DNA of 64,000 bases from Candidatus Gottesmanbacteria bacterium (GCA_016186795.1 JACPKY010000002.1:861892-925891), one strand, 5' to 3'. Shown: positions 24,896-48,827, numbered from the stretch's first letter. A program made the numbers and translations. Notes: a model not told the origin generated them from the sequence alone.

Positions 24896-24916
24896 AAAAT
24901 CCCGAGGGGCGAAGTG

Positions 24917-25311: not shown

Positions 25312-25315
25312 TATT

Positions 25316-25756
25316 CTAAATTTTCCCTTTTACAATTCTTTGAATATCTCTTTCCATATCCCGTTTTTTCAAGGCTTCCCGCTTTTCGTACTGCCTTTTC
25401 CCCTTCCCAAGACCAATTTTTAGCTTCACAAAGCCATGTTTAGTATAACATTCAAGAGGCACAAGTGTCAAACGACTTGATGCTAATTTTACCTTGAGAG
25501 ATAGGATTTCATTTTTATGCATCAGAAGTTTTCGAGTCCTTTTGGAGTCATACCCTTCGGGACGAGCGTAAGGATACGGAAAAATCTGCGCATTCACCAA
25601 ATATACCTCACTCCCGGTAATTTTTACAAACGATCCTTCAAGAGACATTCTCCCTCCTTTTATGGATTTTACTTCCGCACCCAATAGGTGAATACCTGCT
25701 TCAAACGTATCCAGAATAGTAAAATCGTGGTGAGCCTTTTTGTTTACAATTTTCAT
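25316..25756 (-). CDS. smpB: SsrA-binding protein SmpB
   Basis: 146 aa; KKAHHDFTILDTFEAGIHLLGAEVKSIKGG N-terminal signature of SmpB. Confidence 0.85.
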   Translation of the reverse strand: MKIVNKKAHHDFTILDTFEAGIHLLGAEVKSIKGGRMSLEGSFVKITGSEVYLVNAQIFPYPYARPEGYDSKRTRKLLMHKNEILSLKVKLASSRLTLVPLECYTKHGFVKLKIGLGKGKRQYEKREALKKRDMERDIQRIVKGKI

Positions 25757-25765
25757 GAAGAGAAA

Positions 25766-27535
25766 TTACTTCATATCTATCGCATATATTTTATTGCCGG
25801 AGAGGATGAACATCTTCTTCTCTTCCTCAGATGCGATAAAATCATCCGCACTTTTCAGCCCATCCCACTGATATTGCGAGTGATACAATCCATCTTTATC
25901 AAAGACAATAATTCTACTCGTTTGTTTGTCTAAGAAATAGACGTACGTATCTGTATCACTTGTGGAAATATCTTCAATTCCTGCCATACTCTCAGGAAAA
26001 TCTTTCGGCACAAATGGATTCCCATTTCCTTGAGTCAACCTCACGATATCTCCACCCGTTGAGAAAACCCAGACAGAGCCGTCAATAACCAGCTCTTTTG
26101 CTTGGGAAAAGTTGACTGAAACTCCGCGATTGACATAATTTTGTGCTGGTAAATATCCAACTTCCTGTGATATATATTTCCAAATGCTATTATTTGTCCT
26201 GTCAAGAAGATACAGATTCCCTCCAAATGCCGTAAGAGCTGTAATATCACCCCATTTCTCATCTCGCTTAATAACAATATCTGCTTTTTTTGTATCGATA
26301 TGGACTGAAGAAACCCCTTCATCACTCACTATGTACACGAATTTACCATGAATGGTAATGCCCTTGGCATTTTTTACTGTATCACCTCCTGCTATAACCG
26401 ATGCCTTTTTCGTTTTTGAATCGAAATAGTACACGGTATTATTTTTTGTATCGAGAATTGCTTTACTTGTCTCGAAACTCGCAATTTTATTACCCGTTCC
26501 TTCAGCTTTAATAAAACTTATATCAAAGTAGAGAGGCACTGAGGTAAATGTATAGATTTTATATGCAAGGAGTTCCTGTTCTGATACCTTAGTAAGCCAT
26601 TCGTTTGCTTCCCCGTATTCTTTTGAATCTTTGGGAAACTCTTTCAGAAGCGGTGTTAAAGCTACTTTACTATCGGAAAGAAGAGTTCTAGATCTTGCGG
26701 GATTGAGTTCCAAGAGGCTCACTGCTTCTTCGTATTGATGCGAAACAAGATCAAGCACTCCGGCCAGTTTTTCTCGACGCTTCGTTGATTGCGTTTGACT
26801 AATATTTAAAAAGATACTTGCGATAAGAAGACCGGTCAGTATAACAGCGATTGTCAAAAACATCTTTTTCTTGCGAATAGTCTCTGGATCAAGCTCTTCT
26901 TCTTCAACTTTTTTTAGACGCTTCCAAAACATACGTAATGATTCTTTCACTTTTGCCCTGTCAATCTTTCTTGGTTGTTTACTTTCTTCTCTTTTCACCA
27001 CAAGAAGAGAAAACCCATGAGGAGAAGGAGAGGAAAATTGAATTTCTTCTTCCAATTCTTCTTTTTGAGTCTTCGTTTTTGAAAAAATTTCATATCGCCT
27101 CTCTCTCGAGGTATGTTCAATTCCTGTTCTTCCCATAACAAAAACCCTATCATTTTCTAGCACACCCCCTGAAACGATATCCCCCGATGAGGCAATTTTT
27201 CCAATTTTTCCTTCTCTTTCCAGAAGGACTTCGCCGCCTCCAATATTTTTTACAGAAAGCGAATCTCTCGATAGAAGTCCAATTGTTACTGAAGAAAATT
27301 CCTTTCCGATGGTAATTTTCTTTAATTGGCTCATGTCCTTTTGAGACGCATTCTCTAATTCTGTGACTAATTTTTTGAAAATTTCCTCAAATTCGTTATC
27401 CGACACGTTTGGATCGACTAACTCCGCATAAAGAAACAAGTCCTCACGGATAATACTCTTCGCTTTGGCGGGGACGCTCTTTTTCAATGAGAAGGTGTGC
27501 GTCTCGATAAGGGCGAGCATAGGATAAACTGCCAA
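25766..27535 (-). CDS. Hypothetical bitopic protein: cytoplasmic N-domain, single TM, extracytoplasmic beta-propeller-like C-domain
   Basis: 589 aa; TM near residue 220 (MFLTIAVILTGLLIASIF); repetitive beta-strand-rich C-terminus. Confidence 0.45.
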   Translation of the reverse strand: MAVYPMLALIETHTFSLKKSVPAKAKSIIREDLFLYAELVDPNVSDNEFEEIFKKLVTELENASQKDMSQLKKITIGKEFSSVTIGLLSRDSLSVKNIGGGEVLLEREGKIGKIASSGDIVSGGVLENDRVFVMGRTGIEHTSRERRYEIFSKTKTQKEELEEEIQFSSPSPHGFSLLVVKREESKQPRKIDRAKVKESLRMFWKRLKKVEEEELDPETIRKKKMFLTIAVILTGLLIASIFLNISQTQSTKRREKLAGVLDLVSHQYEEAVSLLELNPARSRTLLSDSKVALTPLLKEFPKDSKEYGEANEWLTKVSEQELLAYKIYTFTSVPLYFDISFIKAEGTGNKIASFETSKAILDTKNNTVYYFDSKTKKASVIAGGDTVKNAKGITIHGKFVYIVSDEGVSSVHIDTKKADIVIKRDEKWGDITALTAFGGNLYLLDRTNNSIWKYISQEVGYLPAQNYVNRGVSVNFSQAKELVIDGSVWVFSTGGDIVRLTQGNGNPFVPKDFPESMAGIEDISTSDTDTYVYFLDKQTSRIIVFDKDGLYHSQYQWDGLKSADDFIASEEEKKMFILSGNKIYAIDMK

Positions 27536-27760
27536 TTAGAGAAAAAGAATAACCCAAGTGAATACAAGGATTGATGACAGAAGATGGATAAGTGAAAGAA
27601 TAATAATGATCGGAGAAATATTTGCGTGGACTACCCGTGTCATTACTTGTGTCTGACGTACGACAATAATGGAGAACAAAAGGTGAAGCACGAGGAAAGA
27701 GAGTGCGATAAACTTGATAAGAATCTGTGGGAAAAAAACCGCCAGATCAGTGAGGTTCAT
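27536..27760 (-). CDS. Small hypothetical membrane protein (2 TM)
   Basis: 74 aa hydrophobic ORF abutting upstream gene stop. Confidence 0.3.
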   Translation of the reverse strand: MNLTDLAVFFPQILIKFIALSFLVLHLLFSIIVVRQTQVMTRVVHANISPIIIILSLIHLLSSILVFTWVILFL

Positions 27761-28397
27761 TCTCTTCCTCCTCTTTCCCCATCAATTGATTAATGATTCG
27801 TACTACCCGATCTGGATGAGGAACAGCAAGAAACTCAAACTCCAACTCAGTCCCAGCTGTTTGTACATAGACATCGCCGTAGTCGAAAAACGAGCGAATA
27901 AATCCCTGCGTACTCATGGTGACATCTTCAATTTTGGCAATTCTTGTTTCTGAGAATCTCTTGTTTAAAAGATTCACAAAATCGATATCCACGACACGCT
28001 CTTCCGTAACAATCGACACAGTAAAATACCAGATTAAAAAATTTCCCAACATGTAACTAAACGTCAGTAAATACCAACTTAAAATGAGGAAAAAGAGAAA
28101 CTGCCCAGTGGTGCCTGTTGGAATTGATCCCGAAAAAAAGAGTGCCGGAAAAAGGATGGGCGGAAGAATGAGAAGAATAAAACTGATAACAATCCAATGG
28201 AGATTCGTAACCCAGTGTTTGCGTAAAAAAAGAATGATTGTTTCATCATCTGACTGTGTTTCAAATGTAATACCGGTGGGACGCACCATGTACGAAGACA
28301 AAACCTGCTTCATACCTTCCATAATTGGCTTCATCGGTGCGGTTGCAGACGGCTTTGGATTCTGGGGAGAAGCTGGTGAAACAAAAATATCCGGCAT
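27747..28397 (-). CDS. Membrane-flanked bacterial PH domain protein (bPH_2/DUF304/YdbT-like)
   Basis: 216 aa; cytoplasmic stretch then TM hairpin then PH-like domain, pattern typical of YdbS/YdbT family. Confidence 0.45.
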   Translation of the reverse strand: MPDIFVSPASPQNPKPSATAPMKPIMEGMKQVLSSYMVRPTGITFETQSDDETIILFLRKHWVTNLHWIVISFILLILPPILFPALFFSGSIPTGTTGQFLFFLILSWYLLTFSYMLGNFLIWYFTVSIVTEERVVDIDFVNLLNKRFSETRIAKIEDVTMSTQGFIRSFFDYGDVYVQTAGTELEFEFLAVPHPDRVVRIINQLMGKEEEENEPH

Positions 28398-30175
28398 TAT
28401 CTTTTCTCAATATTATATAACGGACCTACAATTTGGATGTTTGCTGGAGCACGAAGGTTGAAGAAATTACTAAACTCTGCTCCGTCAAAACTTACGCTTC
28501 CTCCGTCTCCGGAAATATTGACACGTGTCGTTTTCCCAACCCCTTTATCCCACTCGATTGAAACACTGGAAACACTTTGTAAGGGATTCTCACCACGGCT
28601 TTGAAGTTCTTGTCGAACTCGACCTGCATCCCATGTATCAACCCCGTCGGGATTTGGTTTATCTACTTGGGAAAGATGTTTTTGGGTCGATCCATCCTTC
28701 TTTGCAAGCCGTAGGACATTGACTATGTCAGCAAGTTCATCACTTTTAAGCCAGGCACTCTTTCCGTACTGACTTCGAAATCCCTGTGCTGCATAAAAAC
28801 AGGGAGATTCACGATCGTATGAACGATCGGCAAGGTCACCAAAACTCCCAATATCACCAGAAGTATCTCTCATCCGTTTTGTATATGAACGGTTACTTCC
28901 CCACACATCACCTGATGTAAAGGTGTACCCGCCAAAGGTCGATGCGTACCATGCCTTTATCGCCGCTCCATCTCGTACCATCACTTCTCCCTCTGTTTCT
29001 TTCACAGCTTTTTCCCAATTTCCACCTTTATTACCACCTTTGTAAACCTGACAGGCTTGGGTCGTGCAGATTTCACTTGCGCCATTATTGGTATACGCAA
29101 GCGCATATGATCTAGCAGCCACAACTTGTGCTTTCAAAGCTTCCAAAGGCCAACTTTCCGGCATTTCATAGATACCTAAGAGATAATCATCTAAGTCTTT
29201 TTCTCCATGACCCTGAACTTTAATTTTCATATGGGGATCCTTTTTCTCGTAGGAAATACCATCAAAGTATGCACCAAGTATATCTCGGTATGACTGTCCG
29301 GCTTTGGCCCTTCCATATGCTCCATACTGATTCAAACCAACGCGATGAGGAATACCATAAGTAAATGCTGCAAACGCTGGAGAAAATCCAGGGTCAATTT
29401 TCCGATCATCGGTACAATAGAGAGGACCTGCCCCAAGGCTCGTTGGAAGATTTAAACTTCCGAACTTTTCGGCGAGTAACTGCTGTTGTTTGGCAGAAAG
29501 CTGGGCAATTTGTGTCGATAAAGCAGTCTGATACTTCTTTGCTCCGGAAATTTCTTTTTCCAAAAATCCGGCTTGCTTATCCGTTTCCTCTCTAATTTTT
29601 GCAAGTCTTGCCTTCTCATTTTCTAACTGCTGTTTTTTTTCTTCCAGACCTTTGACATACAAAACAATCTGGACAATGGTATCCCGGTCGTTTTGTACCA
29701 CTTTTTTCTGGTATCCTAACACCCGGATAGTCTGTGGTAAATTTTGGCTCATAAGAAGGAAGATGCCCGGAGAGGAAAACGAAGTTTTTGATTTATACAT
29801 TTCCCGTACTTTTTGCCCCAAAAGCTCAGAGGCGGTTACGAGAAGTTGTTCTCCTTCTGCAACGAGTGCTTCTTTCCGCTTCACTTCCTTTTCTATTCCA
29901 TCAGTCCGGCGTTTGATATCCGCAAGAGTATCTTTCAGCTTAGAAAGACTGCCTTCAAGTGGAGTTGTTGCAGCAACAGAAAGTTCAAGAGCATGCTTGA
30001 GATCCGAAAGTTGCTTTTCCACATCGGCGAGTTCATCAGCGTATACCCGGGTCTTGGGTGAAAAGATAGAAGCAATGAAGATGCTTATTAAAACAAAGAA
30101 AATAAAAAGTTTTTTTGCGGACAGTTGGAAATGCATACTGCGACCTAAAAATGGTAATACTTTGAGTCTTTCCAT
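28397..30175 (-). CDS. SpoIID/LytB-domain protein with N-terminal signal/TM and long coiled-coil
   Basis: 592 aa; coiled-coil residues about 40-230; C-terminal SpoIID block DYLLGIYEMPESWPLEALKAQVVAARSYA...ICTTQACQVY. Confidence 0.65.
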   Translation of the reverse strand: MERLKVLPFLGRSMHFQLSAKKLFIFFVLISIFIASIFSPKTRVYADELADVEKQLSDLKHALELSVAATTPLEGSLSKLKDTLADIKRRTDGIEKEVKRKEALVAEGEQLLVTASELLGQKVREMYKSKTSFSSPGIFLLMSQNLPQTIRVLGYQKKVVQNDRDTIVQIVLYVKGLEEKKQQLENEKARLAKIREETDKQAGFLEKEISGAKKYQTALSTQIAQLSAKQQQLLAEKFGSLNLPTSLGAGPLYCTDDRKIDPGFSPAFAAFTYGIPHRVGLNQYGAYGRAKAGQSYRDILGAYFDGISYEKKDPHMKIKVQGHGEKDLDDYLLGIYEMPESWPLEALKAQVVAARSYALAYTNNGASEICTTQACQVYKGGNKGGNWEKAVKETEGEVMVRDGAAIKAWYASTFGGYTFTSGDVWGSNRSYTKRMRDTSGDIGSFGDLADRSYDRESPCFYAAQGFRSQYGKSAWLKSDELADIVNVLRLAKKDGSTQKHLSQVDKPNPDGVDTWDAGRVRQELQSRGENPLQSVSSVSIEWDKGVGKTTRVNISGDGGSVSFDGAEFSNFFNLRAPANIQIVGPLYNIEKR

Positions 30176-30217: not shown

Positions 30218-30694
30218 ATGAGAAAAGTACTCCTATTTGTTTTTTTACTTTCTTTTTTCCTCTCTCCACCTCCAATTTTTTCGGCAGTCACCCCAACAAC
30301 ATCGGCAATTAGCCCGCAGCCATCGTGTGATCTCTGCGGTTGGTGCAATCAAGCAGTAAACCCCAAACCTTCTAATTGGGATGCATGCCAGGCATGCATC
30401 GCACAACCCCGCGGATATTATACGGTTTTTGGCTGTTTCTCAACCGATCCGACAGGTGCTCCATTTGTCCAGGCAATTTTAACGCTTGTAGTGGGAGTTG
30501 CAGGAGGAATTGCTTTCTTGGCATTCTTAGCTGGCGCTGCAACGGTACTTACATCAACCGGAAACCCAGAGAAACTATCTTCGGGAAAAGAAACAATTAT
30601 TTCCTCTCTTATCGGGCTTCTTCTTATACTCTTTTCTATATTTTTACTTCGGGTCGTCGGAGTTGACGTATTACAAATTCCTGGATTTGGGTAA
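30218..30694 (+). CDS. TrbC/VirB2-like (T4SS-pilin-type) small protein with Cys-rich pre-domain
   Basis: 158 aa; signal peptide, CDLCGWC...ACQAC...GCFSTD module, then two hydrophobic helices separated by LTSTGNPEKLSSGKE loop. Confidence 0.55.
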   Translation: MRKVLLFVFLLSFFLSPPPIFSAVTPTTSAISPQPSCDLCGWCNQAVNPKPSNWDACQACIAQPRGYYTVFGCFSTDPTGAPFVQAILTLVVGVAGGIAFLAFLAGAATVLTSTGNPEKLSSGKETIISSLIGLLLILFSIFLLRVVGVDVLQIPGFG

Positions 30695-30699
30695 AAATA
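30663..30699. repeat. 38-bp direct repeat, left copy (3' end of pilin-like gene plus RBS region)
   Basis: gttgacgtattacaaattcctggatttgggtaaaaata vs 31288..31325 (35/38 identical). Confidence 0.7.
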
Positions 30700-30700
30700 C

Positions 30701-31222
30701 ATGAAAAAACCTATATATTATGCATTTATTGACAGTCAGAATTTAAATCTCGGTATTCATGATTGCGGCTGGAAACTCGATTTTGCCAGATTTTACGTTT
30801 ATTTAAAAGATAAATATAAAGTTGCAAAAGCATTTCTTTTCATCGGATACGTCGCTGGAAACGAAGTGTTATACACTTCTTTGCAAAAAGCAGGATATAT
30901 TGTTATCTTCAAACCTACTCTTGAATTTAAAAAAGAAGGAAAAACCTATACTAAAGGAAACGTAGATGCAGAATTGGTGCTGCATACGATGATAGAGTAT
31001 CCAAACTATAACAAGACAATCATCGTATCAGGAGATGGAGATTTCCATTGCCTTATTGAATATCTGGAGAAGAAAAATAAACTGTTTCACATTCTTATTC
31101 CGAACCCCCACAAATACTCAGCACTTCTTAGGAAATTTCATAAATATTTCATTTATATTTATTCGTTAAAAAGAAAACTAAGCATAAAAAAGAGAGGGAG
31201 TAACCTTCGGACGAAACCTTAG
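30701..31222 (+). CDS. NYN-domain (LabA/PIN-like) ribonuclease family protein
   Basis: 173 aa; YAFIDSQNL...GNVDAELVL...VSGDGDF acidic residue blocks typical of NYN domain. Confidence 0.65.
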   Translation: MKKPIYYAFIDSQNLNLGIHDCGWKLDFARFYVYLKDKYKVAKAFLFIGYVAGNEVLYTSLQKAGYIVIFKPTLEFKKEGKTYTKGNVDAELVLHTMIEYPNYNKTIIVSGDGDFHCLIEYLEKKNKLFHILIPNPHKYSALLRKFHKYFIYIYSLKRKLSIKKRGSNLRTKP

Positions 31223-31287
31223 GTGTGCCCTCTCATCGTGATTAAGTTGGTATTATAGTACATAATATGCAAAATATCAACTGCCAA

Positions 31288-31325
31288 GTAGACATATTAC
31301 AAATTCCTGGATTTGGGTAGAAATA
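31288..31325. repeat. 38-bp direct repeat, right copy (remnant pilin C-terminal codons VDILQIPGFG-stop)
   Basis: gtagacatattacaaattcctggatttgggtagaaata. Confidence 0.7.
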
Positions 31326-31330
31326 TTATT

Positions 31331-32896
31331 ATGAATGAGTTTAGGCTAAAATATCAGATAGTTTCTCACGCAGTGAATCTGTCATACCTCGTATGTGGAA
31401 GTCGCATTTTAATTCGCGCATATAAATCCTTTCTAGTCTTGTTGACCTCAGTCTTATTGTTTATTGTTTCCTCTTTTTCCCTCTCCCCTGTTTATGCAGC
31501 AGCAAATTGTGGAGGTTTTACTTTCAATGTAACACCTGCCGAATCTAAAATAGGAGATCATACTATTTATTCTAATACCACTAACATAGAAATTGGTTTT
31601 GGTCTCAATCATCCTCCTGATGCCCCTGATCCTGATCCTGCTAACAACGGATTTGTTGTAGCTGCTGATGGAGGCGGCCAAAACGATTACGTTTCCACAC
31701 CTCAGCTTATTACCGATACGCAACGTAGTGTGGGACATTGGGATATATACGTAAAGATTGACAATAACGATAAGTATTCTGCTCAATTTCAGACCCGTTC
31801 ACACGCTCTAAACCTTTATCGTGTTTCTGATTTGGTTCCATTTGATACTTCAAAGCGGCCTCCGCCGGATGTGCTTGCAGGCGCAATCCCTGTTTGCACA
31901 TATACTTATCAAGTCATCCCACTTCCAACACCTACTCTGGCATATGTTCCATGCAATTTAAATTTTCGTATGCAAGACTCTCGAGGAAACATTTTGGATA
32001 AACCGACACTAGATGCTGTTTATTGGGTAACGGGAACTATCTCAAATATGCCCGATAGTCCAATTACTTACGATTCCTCAGGTAATGCTTGGAGTAGACT
32101 CTATTTTGGAGACCTCACTGTAGGTAATCGATCTACAGAAGAATATACTCCTGCAGACAAACAGACGATTTTCAAGTATATTGGTACATTTCCTCAACCA
32201 GGTTCTTATAGAGTTACATACGACATCAAATCCCAGACAGTCCAATGTATCCCAACGGACGAGTATGGTGTCGGAGGAGGGGTAACCTGTCCCAGAGACA
32301 AAACTGGAAAAGTACCAACGGATATTAACGGGCATTGCGAGGCTACCATAAATGTTGATGAATCCGGAGGATCTATCGACATTCCAAAAGTTCCGCCGCA
32401 ATGCATACGACAGGGTGGTCCTGATACTGACCCAGAATGTACATATCCTTACTGTAATGACAAATGTTCTTCTTGTCCCTGGTGTACAAATGTTGCACCA
32501 GGCATAAAAATTCCTAATTTAAAACCTCTTTGTGACCAATTACCAAGATCACCAGTAGACTACCAATCTGCCTGCAACACTTGTGTAAACAATACAGATG
32601 AAACAAAAAAAGGGATCTGGACCGGAATAGGGTGTATTTCCACAAATATGAATACATTTCTTGAAGAGTATGTTTTTCGTTTCGGTCCGGGAATTGCAGG
32701 CGGAATTGCCTTTCTCTATTTCCTTTATGGCTGTTTCCTCATCCTGACCTCGGCAGGAGACCCGGAAAAAATTGCCCAAGGAAAAGAAATAATCGTCTCT
32801 GCCCTCTCAGGACTTCTCCTTGTCATCTTTTCTGTCTTTCTCCTTCGTACGATCGGTGTTGATATTCTCGGTCTTCCTGAATTTACTAAACCGTAA
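31331..32896 (+). CDS. Large (about 520 aa) secreted Cys-rich protein ending in a TrbC/VirB2-like pilin module (putative pilus tip/adhesin-like paralog)
   Basis: ORF track start 31313 is TTG; ATG at 31331 (MNEFRL); signal/TM, about 400-aa domain with more than 20 Cys incl. CPWC...ACNTC...GCISTN, then GIAGGIAFLYF...LTSAGDPEKIAQGKE...two-helix pilin module nearly identical in pattern to 30218 gene. Confidence 0.55.
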   Translation: MNEFRLKYQIVSHAVNLSYLVCGSRILIRAYKSFLVLLTSVLLFIVSSFSLSPVYAAANCGGFTFNVTPAESKIGDHTIYSNTTNIEIGFGLNHPPDAPDPDPANNGFVVAADGGGQNDYVSTPQLITDTQRSVGHWDIYVKIDNNDKYSAQFQTRSHALNLYRVSDLVPFDTSKRPPPDVLAGAIPVCTYTYQVIPLPTPTLAYVPCNLNFRMQDSRGNILDKPTLDAVYWVTGTISNMPDSPITYDSSGNAWSRLYFGDLTVGNRSTEEYTPADKQTIFKYIGTFPQPGSYRVTYDIKSQTVQCIPTDEYGVGGGVTCPRDKTGKVPTDINGHCEATINVDESGGSIDIPKVPPQCIRQGGPDTDPECTYPYCNDKCSSCPWCTNVAPGIKIPNLKPLCDQLPRSPVDYQSACNTCVNNTDETKKGIWTGIGCISTNMNTFLEEYVFRFGPGIAGGIAFLYFLYGCFLILTSAGDPEKIAQGKEIIVSALSGLLLVIFSVFLLRTIGVDILGLPEFTKP

Positions 32897-32934
32897 CTAT
32901 TCACAAGGAAACTATGGTACCATAAAGAAAATCT

Positions 32935-33261
32935 ATGGAACTTGCACAAATATTAAATATCCCGGGCGGAAAGGTTCAGGGCCCACTGCCTACTATTGAT
33001 GCTACGGGGAACACCCGTTTTACTGACCTTGCCTCTTTTGTCACCAACCTTCTCCCTTACATCTTTCCAATATCCGGAGTATTCTTACTTTTTTATCTTA
33101 TCTGGGGAGGTTTTAGCTACCTCACGTCAATGGGAGACCCGAAGAAAGCCGCAGCAGGACAAGCAAAAATCACTAACGCTATTTTGGGATTCCTCCTTAT
33201 TTTTGTCGCATTTCTCATTGTCCAAATTGTGGATTACCTGTTTGGACTAAACCTCTACTAA
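32935..33261 (+). CDS. TrbC/VirB2-like (T4SS-pilin-type) small protein
   Basis: 108 aa; two TM helices separated by LTSMGDPKKAAAGQAK loop. Confidence 0.5.
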   Translation: MELAQILNIPGGKVQGPLPTIDATGNTRFTDLASFVTNLLPYIFPISGVFLLFYLIWGGFSYLTSMGDPKKAAAGQAKITNAILGFLLIFVAFLIVQIVDYLFGLNLY

Positions 33262-33262: not shown

Positions 33263-34594
33263 TCATTTCTCAAAAAACGCAGGGGATGATCCGCCGGGAA
33301 TGACGCGGACGACGTTTAACTTGGCATTATTTTCCAATGTATAAAGAGTCAACTGTTGTGTTCCGCTTTGGAGAGGATTTGGCCGAACTCCGAGAAGCCG
33401 AAAGTCGTCAACCATAAAATCATCTTTTTGCAATGCATTTGGACCAATGATCTGCACGGAGTTTTGACCAAGATCGTATATGCCAACGAGTGGAAGGTTC
33501 GCACTATATTGGTATGGGACAAGAAGTTTTTCCGCATTTAGAAACCAGATAGCAAAGGGTAGAAATCCTTTATCGAGCGTAGATTCAGGAAGATTTGTGG
33601 TACCCATATCAACCAGTGTCGGTTTGGAATTTAGTACTCGTTGCCCTGTTCCATCTATTCCCATAATGTAAAGGTCGTTTTTTTGACTCCCGGTAACACT
33701 ATAGAGAATCTTGGTCTTGTCAGGAGATACCGACATTGCCGAAATAGAAGAATTGGCAACAAGAAGTTTTGCTGATGGGCTTGCAGGATTGACACTGCTT
33801 ATCCCATCAGACCCCCGGAAAAGAACAGTTTTTTCATTCACCCACTCAACTTGAGAAATAGAGGGAGACCGCTTCAGAAGTGAAGTTGCAACTGCCGAAA
33901 CTGAAGAAACTTGGTAACTATCCAGATTATATGTGGCACCTTGCGTCAGAAAAACGAAAGAATCGAAGGAGGGAGACCAGGAATAGTCAGCAATTGCTGC
34001 AGAATTACTTTCTGGGTAGTAGTAAAACGTTTTTTTCTCCCGATCGTAGACTGTCAATTGGGTCAAATTCCCTACTTTGGGAAGCCAGGATAAGTATCTT
34101 CCTGAAAAAGACCAGGAAAGATTTCCTCCCGCTGGTGAAGTATTTTTGGCCAAAAGTGTAACAAATGAAAAATCACTATGGTAAATATCACCATCTTTAA
34201 TAAATGCTAACCGTCCTACCTCAACTGGCGTGATAGTTGCCGATACCGATGCAATAGGTGAAAGCGTTGGTTCAATTGTGGCAGTTGGAAGAAGAATTGG
34301 CGTTGCAGAAGGCCTCGGAGGAGGGGTTGGAGTCGCAGATTTTTTAGATGCCCCCCCTACAAAAAGGAGAAATCCTCCAAGAATAATGATAAGAAGAAGT
34401 AAACCCCCTATGATAAACGGAAGAAACTTTTTCAAAGGATTGACACTTTCTGGAAATTGAGGAGGTGGAGTCTCGGGGGGACCATCAGATGGAGGCGCCT
34501 CACCCTGGGGCACGTCTACCGATGGGGTTTCTACTGGAGTTTCGGAGGGTACATCTTGTGGAGGAGCCTCCTGGGATTGGGCAGTTTGATCCAT
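33263..34594 (-). CDS. TolB-like beta-propeller (PD40 repeat) protein with Pro-rich N-terminus and TM anchor
   Basis: 443 aa; Pro/Glu-rich N-term, TM FLPFIIGGLLLLIIILGGFLLF, Pro/Thr linker, C-terminal repeats like KTKILYSVTGSQKNDLYIMGIDG. Confidence 0.5.
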   Translation of the reverse strand: MDQTAQSQEAPPQDVPSETPVETPSVDVPQGEAPPSDGPPETPPPQFPESVNPLKKFLPFIIGGLLLLIIILGGFLLFVGGASKKSATPTPPPRPSATPILLPTATIEPTLSPIASVSATITPVEVGRLAFIKDGDIYHSDFSFVTLLAKNTSPAGGNLSWSFSGRYLSWLPKVGNLTQLTVYDREKKTFYYYPESNSAAIADYSWSPSFDSFVFLTQGATYNLDSYQVSSVSAVATSLLKRSPSISQVEWVNEKTVLFRGSDGISSVNPASPSAKLLVANSSISAMSVSPDKTKILYSVTGSQKNDLYIMGIDGTGQRVLNSKPTLVDMGTTNLPESTLDKGFLPFAIWFLNAEKLLVPYQYSANLPLVGIYDLGQNSVQIIGPNALQKDDFMVDDFRLLGVRPNPLQSGTQQLTLYTLENNAKLNVVRVIPGGSSPAFFEK

Positions 34595-44217: not shown

Positions 44218-44367
44218 ATTCAGCTACACACGGTTCAAAGCTCCTAGAAGTATCACTTCGTGTATACTCCGTCGTCACTTTTCACCGTGTTCGCATGAAT
44301 ATGAACATTTTCGCGACGAAAGCAGGTTTTGAAATGAGTTCTAGTATTGTACCCCTCCTTCCCTCGT

Positions 44368-44397
44368 TTGACAAATACTCAAAAACTCCCCTACACT
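44368..44397 (+). promoter_or_regulatory. Candidate sigma-70-type promoter (TTGACA-18 nt-TACACT) for pilin-like gene array; near-leaderless
   Basis: TTGACA at 44368..44373, TACACT at 44392..44397, ATG of first pilin-like gene at 44407. Confidence 0.4.
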
Positions 44398-44406
44398 ACA
44401 AGTAGT

Positions 44407-44730
44407 ATGTTTGCAAAACCAGTGTATGCGGTGAATGTCTGCGATGTTTGGACCTTTTGTAATAATAAGAATTTTGCTTCGCTTGGAAGCATTGTCTCGT
44501 TCTTCCTTCCCAAACTTATCCTGGCTGGGGCTGTCATCTTTTTTATCCTGATTATCGTTGCCGGAGTTGGAGTTATTTCCGGAGCAGGTGGTGATGATGC
44601 CAACGCCAAAGAACAATCCAAGATGTTTTTGACATACGCTGTCATTGGACTTCTTCTTATTTTTGGGGCATACTGGATACTGCAGATTCTCAATTTTATC
44701 TTAGGTGGATCGCTTGGCGGATTATTATAG
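44407..44730 (+). CDS. TrbC/VirB2-like (T4SS-pilin-type) small protein, array member 1
   Basis: ORF 44347..44730; preferred start MFAKPV at 44407; two TM helices around ISGAGGDDANAKEQSK loop. Confidence 0.5.
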   Translation: MFAKPVYAVNVCDVWTFCNNKNFASLGSIVSFFLPKLILAGAVIFFILIIVAGVGVISGAGGDDANAKEQSKMFLTYAVIGLLLIFGAYWILQILNFILGGSLGGLL

Positions 44731-44735
44731 TACCA

Positions 44736-45164
44736 ATGAAAAACTTCAACTTTTTGTTAACTATGGCTTTCCTTTTGGCTTTTGGTGTTACTATCCTTTT
44801 ACCAGTTCAAGAAGTCTTTGCACAAACGAATCCTATTGGCGTCATTATTGCACCAACTGGAGGACTGCTTGCAACACCTGCAATTGATGCGTCAGGAAAG
44901 CTTACCGGGGTTATTGCTCTTTTAAATTCCATCCTGAGACTTATATTTATCACTGCAGGGCTCTGGGGATTTATTAATCTCCTTATTTCGGGATTTCAAT
45001 TTATGACTGCAGGAGGCGACCCAAAAGCAATTTCGAAAGCTTGGGAAAAAATTTGGCAATCATTCTTGGGGCTTCTGATTATTGTCACGTCATTTTTACT
45101 GGCAGCAATTATCGGTATCCTCTTATTTAGAGATCCTGTTGCCATTCTTCAGCCTTCACTATGA
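44736..45164 (+). CDS. TrbC/VirB2-like pilin-type small protein, array member 2
   Basis: 142 aa; signal peptide; FQFMTAGGDPKAISKAWEK loop between two TM helices. Confidence 0.55.
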   Translation: MKNFNFLLTMAFLLAFGVTILLPVQEVFAQTNPIGVIIAPTGGLLATPAIDASGKLTGVIALLNSILRLIFITAGLWGFINLLISGFQFMTAGGDPKAISKAWEKIWQSFLGLLIIVTSFLLAAIIGILLFRDPVAILQPSL

Positions 45165-45616
45165 TGAAACAATTGTTCATTATCCTAATTACTGGTATTT
45201 TTTTCTTTTCAACACCTGTGCTTTCCGTCGATTCTTCAACGGGATTAGGATGCAGCGGTACAGGGAACCCTTTTGGGCCGCTTGCGAGCTTCCTTTGTGA
45301 ATTTAGTCCTGGTGCTAGTGAAGAAAACACAGCAGCTGTGGGAAATAAATTAAATTTCACCTTAAGTAGAATCATAGGCTTTTTAACAATTGTTGCAGCA
45401 CTGTGGTTTATCATCCAAATTATCACCGGCGGCTACCAATGGATTTCATCAGGAGGAGATAAACATGGAGTGGAAACGGCACGCGATAAAATGACGTGGG
45501 CATTTATTGGCCTTCTTGTTGTCGTTTTGGGATGGGTCATTGCTGGAGTTGTAGGAAGAATGCTCGGACTTGATATACTAAATCCGGGAAGTCTCCTGCC
45601 AACACTTGGGCTGTAA
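45161..45616 (+). CDS. TrbC/VirB2-like pilin-type small protein, array member 3
   Basis: 151 aa; signal peptide; YQWISSGGDKHGVETARDK loop between TM helices; ATGA overlap with member 2. Confidence 0.55.
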   Translation: MMKQLFIILITGIFFFSTPVLSVDSSTGLGCSGTGNPFGPLASFLCEFSPGASEENTAAVGNKLNFTLSRIIGFLTIVAALWFIIQIITGGYQWISSGGDKHGVETARDKMTWAFIGLLVVVLGWVIAGVVGRMLGLDILNPGSLLPTLGL

Positions 45617-45622
45617 AAAACT

Positions 45623-45994
45623 ATGAATCACCCGATACTTCTTGCACAAATATCGCCAATAACAAATCCGGTTATAACCAACATTGCGCAACGAACTCCG
45701 GATGAGGCGCCTGTTGTCTTTGCGAAATTTTTTGCAGCTTTGGTTGGCCTTCTCCTTACCGGGGCAACGCTTTTTGCGTTGATACAACTTTTTATCGGAG
45801 CTCTCCAATGGATAGCATCCAGTGGAGATAAAACAGCACTAGAAAATGCCCGTGAACGGATTATCCAAGCAATTGTCGGTCTTGTCATTACTTTTGCCGT
45901 ATGGTCAATTTATCTTATTATCCTTCAATTTTTGGGGATATCACCGATTGGAACAGGAGGATCATTTAATATCGTCATTCCCTCTCTTTTATAA
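45623..45994 (+). CDS. TrbC/VirB2-like pilin-type small protein, array member 4
   Basis: 123 aa; LQWIASSGDKTALENARER loop between TM helices. Confidence 0.55.
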   Translation: MNHPILLAQISPITNPVITNIAQRTPDEAPVVFAKFFAALVGLLLTGATLFALIQLFIGALQWIASSGDKTALENARERIIQAIVGLVITFAVWSIYLIILQFLGISPIGTGGSFNIVIPSLL

Positions 45995-46000
45995 AGATAT

Positions 46001-46462
46001 TTGCTGTTTCCCGAATTCATGGATACTCTTGACAAGATGAAAAGTACATTCCATACTAGGAGTATGAAGAGACTTGTATCTTTTGGCGGCGGTGTAGCTA
46101 CGGTTCTTCTTGCCTCATCGTACACATTTGCAGCCGAGACAAAAATAGTCGTCTCGCAACCTCCAAATCTGAAGATTACTAATTTCGGCAAACTCATTGG
46201 AGCTGCGATTGGGGTTGCTCTCGTCCTTGCAACCCTTGCTGCATTCTTCTTCCTTCTCTGGGGTGGTATCCAATGGATCACCTCAGGAGGAGACAAAGCG
46301 GGGGTTGAATCGGCACAACATAGAATCCAGGCAGCACTTCTTGGTCTTCTTATCGTCTTTTCTAACATCTTCCAGTTTACGATACCCAGTGCTGCAACGA
46401 TTACTAATCCTGCTCCCTTTCTTCCTCCTGGTAACCCTGTTGACAACTATCCTAACGAGTAG
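46001..46462 (+). CDS. TrbC/VirB2-like pilin-type small protein, array member 5
   Basis: 153 aa (start may be MKRLVSF signal at about 46064); IQWITSGGDKAGVESAQHR loop. Confidence 0.55.
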   Translation: MLFPEFMDTLDKMKSTFHTRSMKRLVSFGGGVATVLLASSYTFAAETKIVVSQPPNLKITNFGKLIGAAIGVALVLATLAAFFFLLWGGIQWITSGGDKAGVESAQHRIQAALLGLLIVFSNIFQFTIPSAATITNPAPFLPPGNPVDNYPNE

Positions 46463-46548
46463 AAACAGGAATCTCGACGACTAGTGGAATAGAGGGTAAA
46501 AACTCTACCCTTGACAAGTGAAAAAGAACATACCATACTATCTATATT

Positions 46549-46899
46549 ATGAAAAAGTTATTTGCTACTTTAACCGGTTTCACCTCAGTTTTACTCGCAT
46601 CTTCTCCCGCATTTGCCCAAGATACAACAATTACTATTTCAAGACCCGCAAATTTAAACATTACTGAATTTGGCAAGCTCATCGGGGCAATTATCGGCGC
46701 TGCCCTTGTCCTTGCAACCCTTGCTGCATTCTTCTTCCTTCTCTGGGGTGGTATCCAATGGATCACCTCAGGAGGAGACAAAGCGGGGGTTGAATCGGCA
46801 CAACATAGAATCCAGGCAGCACTTCTTGGTCTTCTTATCGTCTTTTCTATTCCTTTCTATGGAAAATTGGCCAGGCACGAATATCCCCTGTATTCTTAA
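46549..46899 (+). CDS. TrbC/VirB2-like pilin-type small protein, array member 6 (carries 150-bp tract identical to member 5; divergent C-tail)
   Basis: 116 aa; identical LVLATLAAFFFLLWGGIQWITSGGDKAGVESAQHRIQAALLGLLIVFS segment; overlaps next gene start by 41 nt. Confidence 0.45.
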   Translation: MKKLFATLTGFTSVLLASSPAFAQDTTITISRPANLNITEFGKLIGAIIGAALVLATLAAFFFLLWGGIQWITSGGDKAGVESAQHRIQAALLGLLIVFSIPFYGKLARHEYPLYS

Positions 46900-47212
46900 G
46901 ATAGACGTAGGAGGAGGGAAAACCGTCGATGTCCCCACCTTTAAATGCTTAGAAGCAATATTTTCAAGAATTCTCCTCGTTGCCATGTCCCTTGCTCTTC
47001 TTGCTCTTTTTGTCATGCTCGTTATTGGAGGATTTAAATTCCTCACTTCGGGTGGCGACCCAAAAGCAACGGCATCTGCCCAGCAAACAATGACGTTTTC
47101 CTTTGCCGGTATTATTCTTATGGCCGTTGCCTACGTCATCTTTCTAATCATCAAAGCATTTACAGGGATTGATGTCCTTAATTTCACCGTACCAACAGTC
47201 ATCGGCCCCTAA
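46859..47212 (+). CDS. TrbC/VirB2-like pilin-type small protein, array member 7
   Basis: From ORF 46670..47212, start MENWPG at 46859; FKFLTSGGDPKATASAQQT loop between TM helices. Confidence 0.5.
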   Translation: MENWPGTNIPCILKIDVGGGKTVDVPTFKCLEAIFSRILLVAMSLALLALFVMLVIGGFKFLTSGGDPKATASAQQTMTFSFAGIILMAVAYVIFLIIKAFTGIDVLNFTVPTVIGP

Positions 47213-47258: not shown

Positions 47259-48827
47259 ATGCACTTTTCTGCCCGGCTATTTTGTTTCGTTTTTGTTTTT
47301 CTTGCTCTTACCCTCTTTTCCTTTTCCAAAGCCGTACCAATTCATGCTGGACTTTTCGGTGCATTTGAAACGAGCGCAACGGATTGTGATAAAAAGATTG
47401 GAGATGATTGGCAAGAAACTCAGACAAACCCGAGTGGACCAACTAAACTTTATGATTGCAAATCGGGCTATAAGGAAGTAAGTAATGCTCTCCAAGCATT
47501 CAACTGGCAAATTCTGGGATCGACAGATCAACGCTTGTACGAGGCCGGAGAAAAGGGAGCAGTTTTTGCATTTGCTCAACTTAACGACTCAATGATTGAT
47601 ACTCCTCCAGCAAGCGGTCTTGCATACACCGGATATGTCCTTGCAAATATAGGGATTTTCCCAAAAGCCTACGCTCAGGGTATTGGGTTTGTCGGGCTTC
47701 TTCCCCTTTTCCCTCTCTGGGCGGCATTTCGAAACATTGCCTACTCTATTCTTATTATCGTCATGGTCGTTATTGGCTTTATGGTAATCTTTCGTATGAA
47801 AATTGACCCAAAAACGGTTATCTCAATTCAAGCTGCGATACCAAAAATAATTGTTGCACTCCTTCTTATCACCTTCTCCTATCCAATTGCAGGATTTCTT
47901 ATTGACCTTATGTATCTTGCCATGGCTATTGCCATCAACATTATTGCAACATCTCTTCCTGAAGCGACATTTCCTGACTATATGAGAGACTCAGCAGATC
48001 TCCAAAATCTCTTTATAACAGGCGGCTGGGGAGCGCTCTGGGGTTCTGTCTTTAACTTTAGACTCATTGGAGATTTCTTTAAACAAATATTTCTCGGGTC
48101 CTCACTCAATACCGGAGTTGGGATAACAACTGAGCTCCTTAGCGCAATCATTTCAGTGGGATTCGGCGGCGTAGCAGGTGCTGCAGCTATTCCATGGGCT
48201 ATCGGAGGACTTATCGCACCAGTTGCTATCCTTCTTCTTATCATTGGACTCGGACTCCTTTTTACCGTTATCCGCATCACCTTCTTACTTTTGAATGCCT
48301 ATATTCAAATTATTCTTGCGCTTATTTTTAGCCCTATTCTTCTTCTTCAGGAAGCAATTCCCGGACGTTCTGCATTTGGTCAATGGATACAGAATTTAAT
48401 TGCCAACCTTATTGTCTTTCCGGCAACTGTTCTTGTCATCTATGGAAGTTGGATTCTGACAACATTTGCATGGAAATCAAACCTGTGGTCTCCGCCTCTC
48501 ACCCCCGTCGGCGGTGGAGGAGACCTTGGCGGGTCTGGAAATCCAATTGCTGTACTTTTAGGGCTTGGAATGATTTTTATGACGCCAAATCTTATCGCAT
48601 CCATCAAAAAAGCTTTCCACCCAACATCTCCATTGCCTATTTCTGCCGGATCTGCCTTCTCGCCTTTGACCGGTGGAATTTCAACAGGGATGGGGGCAAT
48701 GAGCCAGTTCTACTATATGCAACAACTATGGGGAGCACATGGCCAACCAGGACCGTTACAGGCACTTGTTGGGAAAGTTGCTCCATTCTTACGAGGAGGT
48801 CGTGGGGACCATAACAACCCAAGTTAA
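47259..48827 (+). CDS. Polytopic membrane protein, possibly VirB6/TrbL-like (follows pilin array)
   Basis: 522 aa; signal peptide, about 170-aa extracytoplasmic domain, then 6 or more TM helices and Gly-rich C-tail; placement after VirB2-like genes. Confidence 0.35.
   Translation: MHFSARLFCFVFVFLALTLFSFSKAVPIHAGLFGAFETSATDCDKKIGDDWQETQTNPSGPTKLYDCKSGYKEVSNALQAFNWQILGSTDQRLYEAGEKGAVFAFAQLNDSMIDTPPASGLAYTGYVLANIGIFPKAYAQGIGFVGLLPLFPLWAAFRNIAYSILIIVMVVIGFMVIFRMKIDPKTVISIQAAIPKIIVALLLITFSYPIAGFLIDLMYLAMAIAINIIATSLPEATFPDYMRDSADLQNLFITGGWGALWGSVFNFRLIGDFFKQIFLGSSLNTGVGITTELLSAIISVGFGGVAGAAAIPWAIGGLIAPVAILLLIIGLGLLFTVIRITFLLLNAYIQIILALIFSPILLLQEAIPGRSAFGQWIQNLIANLIVFPATVLVIYGSWILTTFAWKSNLWSPPLTPVGGGGDLGGSGNPIAVLLGLGMIFMTPNLIASIKKAFHPTSPLPISAGSAFSPLTGGISTGMGAMSQFYYMQQLWGAHGQPGPLQALVGKVAPFLRGGRGDHNNPS

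What the first reader, a model, noticed from the sequence alone, without database searches (positions are those of the whole stretch)
30218..33261. Second pilin-like locus containing a 520-aa Cys-rich giant paralog
The ORFs at 30218, 31331 and 32935 all end in the same two-helix pilin module. The conserved segment reads GIAGGIAFL...LTS(T/A)G(N/D)PEK...GKE...LLRxxGVD(V/I)L. The 31331..32896 protein places a roughly 400-aa extracytoplasmic domain with more than 20 cysteines (CPWC, ACNTC, GCISTN motifs) in front of this module. The short 30218 paralog carries a miniature version of the same Cys module (CDLCGWC...ACQAC...GCFSTD). This resembles a major-pilin plus tip-adhesin pairing, but built on a VirB2-like scaffold rather than a type IV pilin. 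A TolB-like beta-propeller protein with a Pro-rich stalk (33263..34594) is adjacent.
Basis: seen in the sequence. Interest (0 to 1): 0.7.

Follow-up and report, generated by a model that had tools for sequence, protein, structure and literature searches.

The report
VirB2-like pilin trio with giant paralog
An uncultured ultra-small (CPR) bacterium has three neighbouring genes for conjugation-type (VirB2-like) pilin proteins, and one of them carries a large, fast-evolving, cysteine-rich outer domain that may be displayed on the cell surface to recognise a host.

Summary
The window comes from Candidatus Gottesmanbacteria (Microgenomates, CPR). ORFs 30218-30694 (158 aa), 31331-32896 (521 aa) and 32935-33261 (108 aa) all pass Pfam's threshold for PF18895 T4SS_pilin, the VirB2-like pilin family already known to form arrays in Patescibacteria. 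The 158-aa and 521-aa proteins are true paralogs: 39% identity over a Cys module plus a helical hairpin. The giant has 18 cysteines, not more than 20.

Four cysteines just before the first membrane helix are at least 90% conserved in 104 relatives. The roughly 300-aa N-terminal ectodomain is an orphan. It cannot be aligned even in the closest relative, whose neighbouring genes are 54-84% identical.

A Cys-pilin plus a small pilin is a conserved pair, divergent from a SpoIID operon in 47 loci. The giant is an added paralog in about 17 of them. Elsewhere Cys-pilins sit beside homologs of the 522-aa membrane protein that ends the window's second pilin array.

Best reading: a modular VirB2-like pilin that displays a variable recognition domain. 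Pilus assembly and a tip-adhesin role are untested. I rate it a new variant of a known kind, of moderate interest.

The parts
30218..30694 (+). p158, a short Cys-capped VirB2-like pilin. It has a Sec-type leader (aa 1-~23), a 6-Cys module (aa 37-73: CDLCGWC, CQAC, GC) and a helical hairpin (aa ~80-152), and it ends ...GVDVLQIPGFG.
   Evidence: PF18895 at 30.1 bits. About 35 orthologs at 50-81% identity keep all six cysteines of (T/S)CD(L/M)CG(W/Q)C...C..C...GC.
30661..30699 (+). Direct repeat, copy 1. This is the 3' end of p158, including its stop codon.
   Evidence: A 39-nt repeat at 92% identity with 626-nt spacing. The sequence was read.
30701..31222 (+). NYN-domain gene (173 aa), an inserted cassette between two pilin genes. 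It is not a pilin.
   Evidence: PF01936, E 9e-13. The gene is absent at this position in L002, L006 and L009-L012. It is present in L001 (two copies), L005, L015 and L018.
31287..31325 (+). Direct repeat, copy 2. It lies just upstream of the giant gene's ATG and contains the spurious TTG at 31313.
31331..32896 (+). p521, the giant modular VirB2-like pilin, encoded as a single gene.
   Evidence: Identical to NCBI HYW55_05785. PF18895 at 27.2 bits.
31331..31498 (+). Long leader of the giant (aa 1-56). A hydrophobic core is followed by VYA|AA.
   Evidence: Hydropathy profile and inspection of the sequence. The cleavage site is inferred.
31499..32395 (+). Hypervariable, beta-rich ectodomain of the giant (aa 57-355). 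It probably forms two sandwich domains, each bracketed by a cysteine pair (C60/C189 and C208/C306).
   Evidence: phmmer against 1.84 billion representatives found only the protein itself plus one weak match (E 4.4e-5) to a 688-aa internally repetitive, non-pilin protein, judged spurious. Only 5 of 57 family members are detectably similar. It cannot be aligned in the closest relative, L001. AF2 predicts beta strands with pLDDT about 40-84. Foldseek gave only weak Ig-like, C2 or Asf1 matches.
32402..32641 (+). Cys-rich linker (C358, C370, C375, C379, C382, C385) followed by the conserved 4-Cys cap (C401, C415, C418, C435: LCDQ...CNTC...WTGIGC).
   Evidence: The four cap cysteines are invariant or at least 90% conserved in 104 sequences. 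AF2 pLDDT is 88-94; the predicted elements are a short helix, a CxxC helix and a beta hairpin. An HMM of this module hits only hairpin-bearing ORFs: 98 of 98 in 88 loci.
32648..32866 (+). Two-helix pilin hairpin of the giant (aa 440-512). It includes the LTSAGDPEK...GKE loop and the external GVDILGLPEF tail.
32935..33261 (+). p108, a small Cys-free VirB2-like pilin without a signal peptide. It is the conserved partner of the Cys-pilin.
   Evidence: PF18895 at 40.1 bits. Orthologs follow the Cys-pilin in all 47 context-A loci. It is 37% identical to the giant's C-terminus.
28397..30175 (-). SpoIID/LytB-domain protein (592 aa), the first gene of the conserved divergent operon (SpoIID, 216 aa, DUF5657, 589 aa, SmpB, tmRNA). 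It is a conserved neighbour. A functional link to the pilins is not shown.
   Evidence: PF08486 and TIGR02669. The synteny is seen.
44347..47212 (+). Second array of seven PF18895-type pilin ORFs. Two of them are a recent 275-nt duplication.
47259..48827 (+). 522-aa polytopic membrane protein of unknown family. It is the recurrent genomic partner of Cys-pilins in other genomes and is a candidate assembly platform.
   Evidence: phmmer E 1e-44 to 1e-61 to ORFs lying convergent to Cys-pilins in about 39 loci, and to an ORF that follows the merged array in L083. No Pfam, NCBIfam or PDB match.

Best explanation
The locus encodes three paralogous members of the Patescibacterial VirB2-like pilin family (Pfam PF18895).

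Each protein is a membrane hairpin of two long helices joined by a short basic loop. The loop is expected to face the cytoplasm, or the lumen if the subunits polymerise. Both termini are expected to lie outside the cell. p158 and p108 are the ancestral, conserved pair. p158 carries a small, membrane-proximal, cysteine-stabilised cap just outside TM1.

The 521-aa protein is a Gottesmanbacteria-lineage duplicate of the Cys-capped pilin. In front of the same cap and hairpin it has gained a Cys-rich linker and a roughly 300-aa beta-rich ectodomain. That ectodomain is replaced or diverges so fast that it is unrecognisable between close relatives.

I infer that the giant is a modular pilin. The hairpin anchors it in the membrane and may insert it, as a minor subunit, into a VirB2-type filament made of the small pilins. 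The variable ectodomain is displayed outward as a recognition or adhesion module, plausibly for the host cell of this presumed episymbiont. Assembly probably involves the conserved 522-aa polytopic membrane protein of the second array.

Shown here: family membership, paralogy, domain layout, conservation of the cap, hypervariability of the ectodomain, and the synteny.

Inferred: membrane topology, disulfide bonding, surface display, filament incorporation, the adhesin role, and the role of the 522-aa protein.
For: - All three proteins pass PF18895, as do 104 of 104 relatives.
- p158 and the giant align with E 3e-27; p108 and the giant align with E 2e-9.
- AF2 models the cap and hairpin with pLDDT 88-95.
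- The four cap cysteines are at least 90% conserved.
- The window encodes a DsbD/CcdA-type membrane protein and two thioredoxin-fold proteins. These are compatible with managed extracytoplasmic thiols.
- The ectodomain has no homolog among 1.84 billion representatives. It cannot be aligned in L001, where neighbouring genes are 54-84% identical.
- Some relatives carry extra Cys-rich domains after the C-terminal PGF tail. This fits both termini being external.
- The Cys-pilin plus small-pilin pair is conserved in 47 loci, and the giant is an added copy in about 17 of them.
- Cys-pilins are adjacent to homologs of the 522-aa protein in about 39 loci, and L083 merges Cys-pilins, seven small pilins and that protein.
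- Literature: VirB2-like pilin arrays are widespread in Patescibacteria and essential in Southlakia epibionticum. No adhesin has been detected for these systems (PMC12102498, PMC10633639, PMC12857230).
Against: - No ORF scanned in the 64-kb window matches VirB4 or another recognised T4SS component.
- The locus sits in a housekeeping-like syntenic block (SpoIID operon, uppS, mevalonate genes). That context does not argue for a secretion machine.
- The PF04956 TrbC/VirB2 model is not matched by the window proteins; only 2 of 104 relatives match it weakly.
- The ectodomain model has low confidence and no fold match with E below 1e-3.
- No filament of this pilin family has been observed in any Patescibacterium, according to the reviews read.
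- A 40-kDa domain on every subunit would not fit the surface of a VirB2-type pilus. This is my estimate from published F-pilus geometry. Incorporation could therefore be only sparse or terminal.
Confidence: 0.55

Rival explanations
1. These are envelope proteins, not pilus subunits. The PF18895 hairpin serves only as a two-helix membrane anchor. p158 and p108 would be housekeeping envelope components that work with the divergently transcribed SpoIID operon in cell-wall remodelling or division. The giant would be a membrane-anchored surface protein.
For: The pair lies next to the SpoIID operon in 47 loci, with a 42-bp divergent intergenic region in the window. No VirB4 or other T4SS gene was found in the window. 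No filament has been shown for this family in the literature read (PMC12857230).
Against: The synteny block also contains functionally unrelated genes (smpB, uppS, mevalonate pathway). Adjacency may therefore reflect only conserved gene order. In Roizmanbacteria-type genomes the Cys-pilin is not near SpoIID but beside the 522-aa protein, and L083 joins it to a seven-pilin array. Multi-copy divergent arrays are typical of polymerising pilins (PMC12102498).
Confidence: 0.27
2. The Cys module is a metal or redox centre. CxxCxxC plus CxxC plus C would bind zinc or an iron-sulfur cluster, or act as a thiol-disulfide relay, giving the proteins a redox or electron-transfer role at the cell surface.
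For: The motif (T/S)CDLCGWCN is almost invariant in p158 orthologs, non-cysteine residues included. The CxxC motif lies in a predicted helix that spans mature residues 355-363. A thiol-redox gene cluster lies in the window.
Against: The leaders are Sec-type, not twin-arginine, so a folded cofactor-bearing domain is unlikely to be exported (sequence). Only four cysteines are conserved family-wide, and distant members lack CxxCxxC. No match to any metal-binding family was found.
Confidence: 0.08
3. The giant is an artefact or a decaying gene: two genes fused by a sequencing error, or a pseudogenised pilin with a meaningless N-terminal extension.
For: The ectodomain has no homologs. Assemblies from other samples break just upstream of the gene.
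Against: The ORF is uninterrupted over 521 codons and is identical to an independent NCBI gene call. Fifty-seven relatives share the same architecture, and five are alignable over 79-93% of the length. The paired cysteines and beta-strand pattern are those of a folded domain. The assembly breaks coincide with the 39-nt direct repeat, which is longer than a typical assembly k-mer.
Confidence: 0.03

Closest known systems
VirB2-like pilin arrays of Patescibacteria (Pfam PF18895 T4SS_pilin); Quinonero-Coronel et al. 2025, PMC12102498; Wang et al. 2023, PMC10633639
   Same: Same Pfam family and the same phylum-level host. The genes are in tandem with one non-pilin gene allowed between them. The paralogs are highly divergent. 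Such arrays are especially abundant in Microgenomatia.
   Different: The published arrays are described as small pilins, often near virB4. Here two members carry a conserved 4-6-Cys cap and one carries a roughly 390-aa ectodomain. The locus is not near any recognised T4SS gene and occupies a fixed position next to SpoIID. I found no mention of these features in the papers read.
Classical conjugative pilins VirB2/TrbC/TraA (PF04956) and the archaeal conjugation pilin of Aeropyrum pernix (PDB 8dfu)
   Different: The window proteins do not match PF04956. There are no VirB4, VirB5 or VirB6 family hits nearby. There is no evidence of cyclisation or lipid binding. Classical pilins carry no large appended domain.
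Modular type IV pilins (for example Streptococcus sanguinis PilB and PilC, or minor pilins with grafted domains); analogy from my own knowledge
   Same: The same design principle: a polymerisation module fused to a functional or adhesive module, encoded beside plain pilins.
   Different: The fold and machinery are unrelated. There is no class III signal peptide and no prepilin-peptidase motif. In type IV pilins the extra domain follows the pilin module; here it precedes the hairpin.
VirB5-type pilus-tip adhesins and the multi-copy TrwL/TrwJ variants of Bartonella (cited in PMC12102498)
   Same: The proposed role is the same: a variable host-contact component of a VirB2-based appendage. Both involve paralog amplification.
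   Different: VirB5 is a separate, mainly helical protein without a pilin hairpin (from my own knowledge of that family). The giant is beta-rich and is itself a pilin paralog. It has no VirB5 family hit.

Membership tests
Pfam PF18895 T4SS_pilin (Patescibacterial VirB2-like pilins) | HMM score above the curated gathering threshold (26.6 bits) | tested here: met
   p158 scores 30.1 bits, the giant 27.2 bits and p108 40.1 bits. All 104 of 104 aligned relatives match.
Pfam PF18895 T4SS_pilin (Patescibacterial VirB2-like pilins) | Two long hydrophobic helices separated by a short polar, basic loop | tested here: met
   Hydropathy profile, alignment of the ten pilins in the window, and AF2 helices with pLDDT 91-95.
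Patescibacterial VirB2 array as defined in PMC12102498 | Two to eleven pilin genes in tandem, or separated by a single non-pilin gene | tested here: met
   Three PF18895 genes lie at 30218-33261 with one NYN gene between the first two.
Classical VirB2/TrbC conjugative pilin (PF04956) | Match to the TrbC/VirB2 HMM | tested here: not met
   The three window proteins give no PF04956 hit at E of 0.1 or below. Only 2 of 104 relatives match, at E about 1e-3. The PDB profile search found nothing.
Classical VirB2/TrbC conjugative pilin (PF04956) | Three-dimensional similarity to a solved conjugative pilin | tested here: inconclusive
Classical VirB2/TrbC conjugative pilin (PF04956) | Encoded together with VirB4 and other T4SS genes | tested here: not met
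   No VirB4-type or other T4SS family was found among the ORFs scanned in the window. Not every ORF was scanned, and the rest of the 1.1-Mb genome was not searched.
Classical VirB2/TrbC conjugative pilin (PF04956) | Polymerises into an extracellular pilus | not testable with these tools
   This needs microscopy or biochemistry. No multimer modelling was available.
VirB5-type tip adhesin | VirB5/TrbJ family match or a helical-bundle fold | tested here: not met
   No such Pfam or NCBIfam hit. The ectodomain is predicted to be beta-rich. That the VirB5 fold is helical is from my own knowledge.
Type IV (class III signal) pilin | N-terminal prepilin-peptidase motif followed by a single hydrophobic helix | tested here: not met
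   The N-termini are Sec-type leaders or absent, and the hydrophobic module is a C-terminal hairpin (sequences).
TolB / PD40 beta-propeller (the neighbour at 33263-34594) | Match to the TolB or PD40 family, or to a solved TolB | tested here: not met
   Only a sub-threshold WD40_CDC20-Fz hit: E 0.0045, 16.8 bits against a cutoff of 200. No NCBIfam hit. No PDB hit at E of 1 or below. The fold was not predicted.

The most novel reading that the evidence does not exclude
Microgenomates may build a VirB2-type surface filament or conduit without a nearby VirB4. It would be assembled by a new 520-570-aa polytopic membrane protein from a Cys-capped pilin and a leaderless small pilin. Gottesmanbacteria would then arm this filament with modular pilins whose swappable, disulfide-rich ectodomains set host specificity. 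This would be the 'missing adhesin' of Patescibacterial T4SS-like systems. A second possibility is that the NYN and toxin-antitoxin cassettes, flanked by duplicated pilin-gene ends, are a new kind of small mobile cassette that targets pilin gene termini.
Probability: 0.2. Interest if true: 0.75.

Novelty: new variant of a known kind. Interest (0 to 1): 0.55.

Why it matters
Patescibacteria make up a large share of bacterial diversity, and the cultivated members live attached to host cells. How they recognise hosts is largely unknown. Their T4SS-like pilin arrays are essential in the one species tested, yet no pilus has been seen and no adhesin has been found for them.

A pilin-family protein carrying a large, hypervariable, cysteine-stabilised outer domain is a concrete, testable candidate for that host-contact element. 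It sits in a fixed locus next to two conserved small pilins.

The recurrent link to a 522-aa membrane protein of unknown family also points to a candidate assembly factor. This matters in a class (Microgenomatia) where VirB6 homologs have been reported as scarce.

Tried and rejected
Searches and analyses that led nowhere:
- AF2 of p158 from a single sequence gave a poor model, mean pLDDT 58.6. Only the hairpin was credible.
- A word-index search with the Cys module alone (giant aa 355-440) returned no candidates at all. The question of Cys modules outside pilins could therefore be answered only locally: 98 of 98 module-bearing ORFs in 88 loci also carry the hairpin.
- The afdb50 fold library was unavailable.
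- Foldseek against the PDB gave no hit with E below 1e-3.
- A profile search of the PDB with the family alignment gave nothing.
- Pfam, NCBIfam and PDB searches with the 522-aa protein and 25 homologs gave no VirB6/TrbL or other family.
- The 443-aa neighbour, the 589-aa protein and the 216-aa protein gave no informative hits beyond a weak bPH_2 match.
- Rfam found no RNA family in 30.0-33.4 kb. The promoter and terminator scan was at or below shuffle expectation.
- I looked for strain-level variation of the giant through contigs that carry an identical p158. All of them end at the 39-nt repeat, so they say nothing about the giant.
- The single weak hit to the ectodomain (P0059) is a 688-aa internally repetitive protein without a hairpin. 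I judged it spurious.

Ideas considered and rejected:
- Sortase or PGF-CTERM sorting signal: the PGF motif follows the last helix rather than preceding it.
- Holin-endolysin pair with SpoIID: these proteins have leaders and belong to a pilin family.
- DGR-driven variation: no reverse transcriptase was seen among the window or locus genes scanned. I did not test this further.
Full report
**What is at the coordinates**

The + strand carries ORFs at 30218-30694 (158 aa, 'p158'), 30701-31222 (173 aa), 31313/31331-32896 (527/521 aa, 'the giant') and 32935-33261 (108 aa, 'p108'). p158, the giant and p108 each match Pfam PF18895 T4SS_pilin above its 26.6-bit gathering score, at 30.1, 27.2 and 40.1 bits. 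The 173-aa ORF is an NYN-domain protein, not a pilin.

p158 and the giant align at 39% identity over 142 residues, E 3e-27 with composition-based statistics. The alignment runs through the CxxCxxC, CxxC and GC motifs and both hydrophobic helices. p108 aligns with the giant's C-terminus at 37% identity over 93 residues, E 2e-9. The shared module is therefore homologous, not a hydrophobic coincidence.

- The giant has 18 cysteines, not more than 20.
- The quoted consensus fits p158 and the giant but not p108, which has no cysteine.
- The 'TolB-like' label of the minus-strand neighbour has no sequence support.

The ATG at 31331 is the better start. The TTG at 31313 lies inside a duplicated copy of the end of p158, and NCBI calls the same 521-aa protein.

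**Source and family**

The giant is identical to the hypothetical protein HYW55_05785 of a Candidatus Gottesmanbacteria MAG, on a 1.118-Mb contig. p158 is HYW55_05775.

PF18895 is the family used to define 'VirB2-like pilins' of Patescibacteria. Arrays of 2-11 such genes occur in 383 assemblies, especially in Microgenomatia and Saccharimonadia. They include an essential array in Southlakia epibionticum. No pilus has been seen and no adhesin has been detected (PMC12102498, PMC10633639, PMC12857230). The window holds ten hairpin-bearing ORFs: three here and seven at 44.3-47.2 kb.

**Anatomy of the giant**

The giant has five parts:
- A 56-aa leader.
- A beta-rich region, aa 57-355. Cysteine pairs (C60/C189 and C208/C306) bracket two probable sandwich domains.
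- A Cys-rich linker (C358-C385, including CSSCPWC).
- A cap with C401, C415, C418 and C435.
- A hairpin, aa 440-512, ending GVDILGLPEF.

AF2 was run with a 104-sequence alignment. It models the cap and hairpin with pLDDT 88-95: a short helix, a helix carrying CxxC, a beta hairpin and two long helices. The ectodomain is strand-rich, but its pLDDT is only about 40-84.

**Family-wide pattern**

Fifty-seven relatives of 286-724 aa share the C-terminal 120-130 residues at 45-58% identity. Their consensus is LCxQ...CxxC...WTAIGC[IL]PT[DN]...GIAGGIAFLYFLYG...LTSAGN[AP]EK...GKEII.SALSGLLLIIFS.FLL..IGVDIL.[IL]PGF. Their N-terminal parts are unrelated to each other: only five are detectably similar to the window protein.

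In the 104-sequence alignment the four cap cysteines are invariant or at least 90% conserved. p158 orthologs, about 35 of them at 50-81% identity, keep six cysteines and an almost invariant (T/S)CDLCGWCN motif. More distant short members keep only the four-Cys core.

The ectodomain is an orphan. phmmer against 1.84 billion cluster representatives found only the protein itself and one weak hit (E 4.4e-5) to an internally repetitive, non-pilin protein, which I judged spurious. In the closest relative, L001, the neighbouring genes are 54-84% identical and p158 and p108 are 77-78% identical. The first ~290 residues of that relative's giant cannot be aligned at all.

Several relatives add Cys-rich domains after the C-terminal PGF tail. 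This is consistent with both termini being outside the cell.

**Genomic context**

A scan of one genome per species found the Cys-module pilin in at least 183 genomes. By their record titles these are Gottesmanbacteria, Roizmanbacteria, Microgenomates and 'Patescibacteria group'. Many titles are generic and unreliable. Two contexts recur.

- Context A (47 loci). The minus strand carries smpB, a ~600-aa protein, DUF5657, a ~215-aa protein and SpoIID. Divergent from these on the plus strand are one to three Cys-pilins (125-665 aa) followed by a p108-type small pilin, usually with uppS and mevalonate genes after it. The ancestral unit is one Cys-pilin plus one small pilin. The short-plus-giant pair seen in the window occurs in about 17 loci.
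- Context B (about 39 loci, many with Roizmanbacteria titles). A 245-290-aa Cys-pilin lies convergent to a homolog (E 1e-44 to 1e-61) of the window's 522-aa polytopic membrane protein (47259-48827). In the window that protein closes the seven-pilin array. In L056 the neighbourhood is yidC, jag, a 1283-aa protein, the Cys-pilin, then the 522-aa homolog.

L083 merges everything: SpoIID, three Cys-pilins, seven small pilins and a 522-aa homolog. This links the two loci of the window.

The 522-aa family has no Pfam, NCBIfam or PDB match. VirB6 homologs have been reported as scarce in Microgenomatia (PMC12102498). It is a candidate assembly platform, but this is inference only.

No ORF scanned in the window matches VirB4 or another recognised T4SS component. 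The 443-aa neighbour accompanies the locus in only five loci.

**Most likely mechanism**

Shown: three paralogous VirB2-like hairpin proteins, a conserved cysteine cap, a hypervariable ectodomain in the giant, and fixed partners.

Inferred from the family and the positive-inside distribution: the basic loop faces the cytoplasm (or the lumen of a filament), and both termini and the whole N-terminal domain are outside. The cap cysteines are probably disulfide-bonded. This fits the Sec-type leaders and the thiol-redox genes in the window (a DsbD_TM-DUF3179 fusion and two thioredoxin-fold proteins).

I therefore read the giant as a modular pilin. The hairpin anchors it and may polymerise. The variable ectodomain is displayed as a recognition or adhesion module.

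From published F-pilus geometry (my own knowledge) a 40-kDa domain per subunit would not fit a VirB2-type lattice. If the giant enters a filament, it must do so as a sparse or terminal subunit, with the small pilins forming the shaft. It remains untested, and the giant is not a VirB5 relative.

The main rival is that the hairpin is only a membrane anchor and the pair belongs functionally with the SpoIID operon. A metal or redox role for the Cys motifs is a weaker rival. An assembly artefact is excluded.

**Novelty**

The family and its arrays are known. I did not find the following described in the papers read:
- The Cys-capped subfamily.
- Its fixed pairing with a leaderless small pilin beside SpoIID.
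- The modular giants with orphan ectodomains.
- The association with the 522-aa membrane protein.

This is a new variant of a known kind. All of the evidence is computational.

**Side observation: inserted cassettes**

The NYN gene is flanked by a 39-nt direct repeat at 92% identity. One copy is the 3' end of p158 and the other lies just upstream of the giant.

In L001 the same pilin 3' end occurs four times, once after each of three tandem cassettes (NYN, a 156-aa gene, NYN). A PhdYeFM/ParE cassette there is flanked by a 28-nt repeat of the start of the small-pilin gene.

NYN genes sit at this exact position in five other cases, and other loci have none. Contigs from other samples break at the repeat. 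Small cassettes therefore seem to target the ends of these pilin genes. The mechanism is unknown.

Noticed in passing
window 30661-31325: The NYN-domain gene (30701-31222) is flanked by a 39-nt direct repeat at 92% identity. One copy is the 3' end of p158 with its stop codon and the other lies just upstream of the giant's ATG. It looks like an inserted cassette with a long duplicated target.
   Followed up: partly
L001 5322-7395 and 9134-9796; also L005, L015, L018: In the closest relative the pilin 3' end is repeated four times, once after each of three tandem cassettes (NYN, a 156-aa unknown gene, NYN; unit 661-689 nt). A PhdYeFM/ParE toxin-antitoxin cassette is flanked by a 28-nt repeat of the start of the small-pilin gene. 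NYN genes of only 31-57% identity occupy the same slot in other loci, while many loci have none.
   Followed up: partly
window 47259-48827; L020-L088 (about 39 loci); L083 9959-11617: A 522-aa polytopic membrane protein with no Pfam, NCBIfam or PDB match is the recurrent neighbour of Cys-pilins in many genomes with Roizmanbacteria titles, and it ends the window's seven-pilin array. It is a candidate divergent VirB6 analogue or a new assembly factor.
   Followed up: partly
window 9839-12578 (minus strand): A thiol-disulfide redox cluster: a DsbD_TM-DUF3179 fusion (552 aa) followed by two thioredoxin-fold proteins with N-terminal extensions (148 and 185 aa). It may be relevant to the many extracytoplasmic cysteines of the pilin-like proteins.
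   Followed up: no
window 46090-46364 and 46575-46849: A 275-nt tandem duplication (82% gapless identity, with a near-identical core) inside the second pilin array. Both copies (ORFs 46001-46462 and 46549-46899) lose the normal second helix after ...GLLIVFS. They may be frameshifted or recombined pilin genes. ORF 46670-47212 overlaps the second copy.
   Followed up: no
window 32935-32975 compared with 30664-30694: The leaderless small pilin begins MELAQILNIPGG, and its orthologs begin L..LPG[GTA]. This resembles the external C-terminal tail ...DVLQIPGFG of the Cys-pilins. Both ends are predicted to be outside the cell. This could be a shared processing or docking motif, or a by-product of recombination at gene ends.
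   Followed up: no
P0017, P0023, P0025, P0029, P0042, P0046 (relatives of the giant): Some family members carry a further 80-240-aa extension after the C-terminal PGF tail, Cys-rich in most of them (up to 41 cysteines in the whole protein). In these proteins both ends of the hairpin are decorated.
   Followed up: no
window 24914-30175 (minus strand): A conserved operon-like block across Microgenomates: SpoIID/LytB protein with a coiled-coil N-terminus, a 216-aa bPH_2-like membrane protein, DUF5657 (74 aa), a 589-aa unknown protein, SmpB and tmRNA. Only 42 bp separate the SpoIID start from the p158 start.
   Followed up: partly
window 54371-55759 and 5380-6714: A RuBisCO large-subunit homolog (462 aa) and a NiFe-hydrogenase large-subunit-like protein (444 aa) lie in the window. 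Neither is related to the finding.
   Followed up: no
window 55856-59677 (minus strand); L056 1785-5636: Two proteins of about 1,280 aa with no family match lie near yidC and jag. In L056 the protein sits directly upstream of the Cys-pilin. The two share only a weak C-terminal similarity (24% identity, pairwise E 0.004).
   Followed up: no
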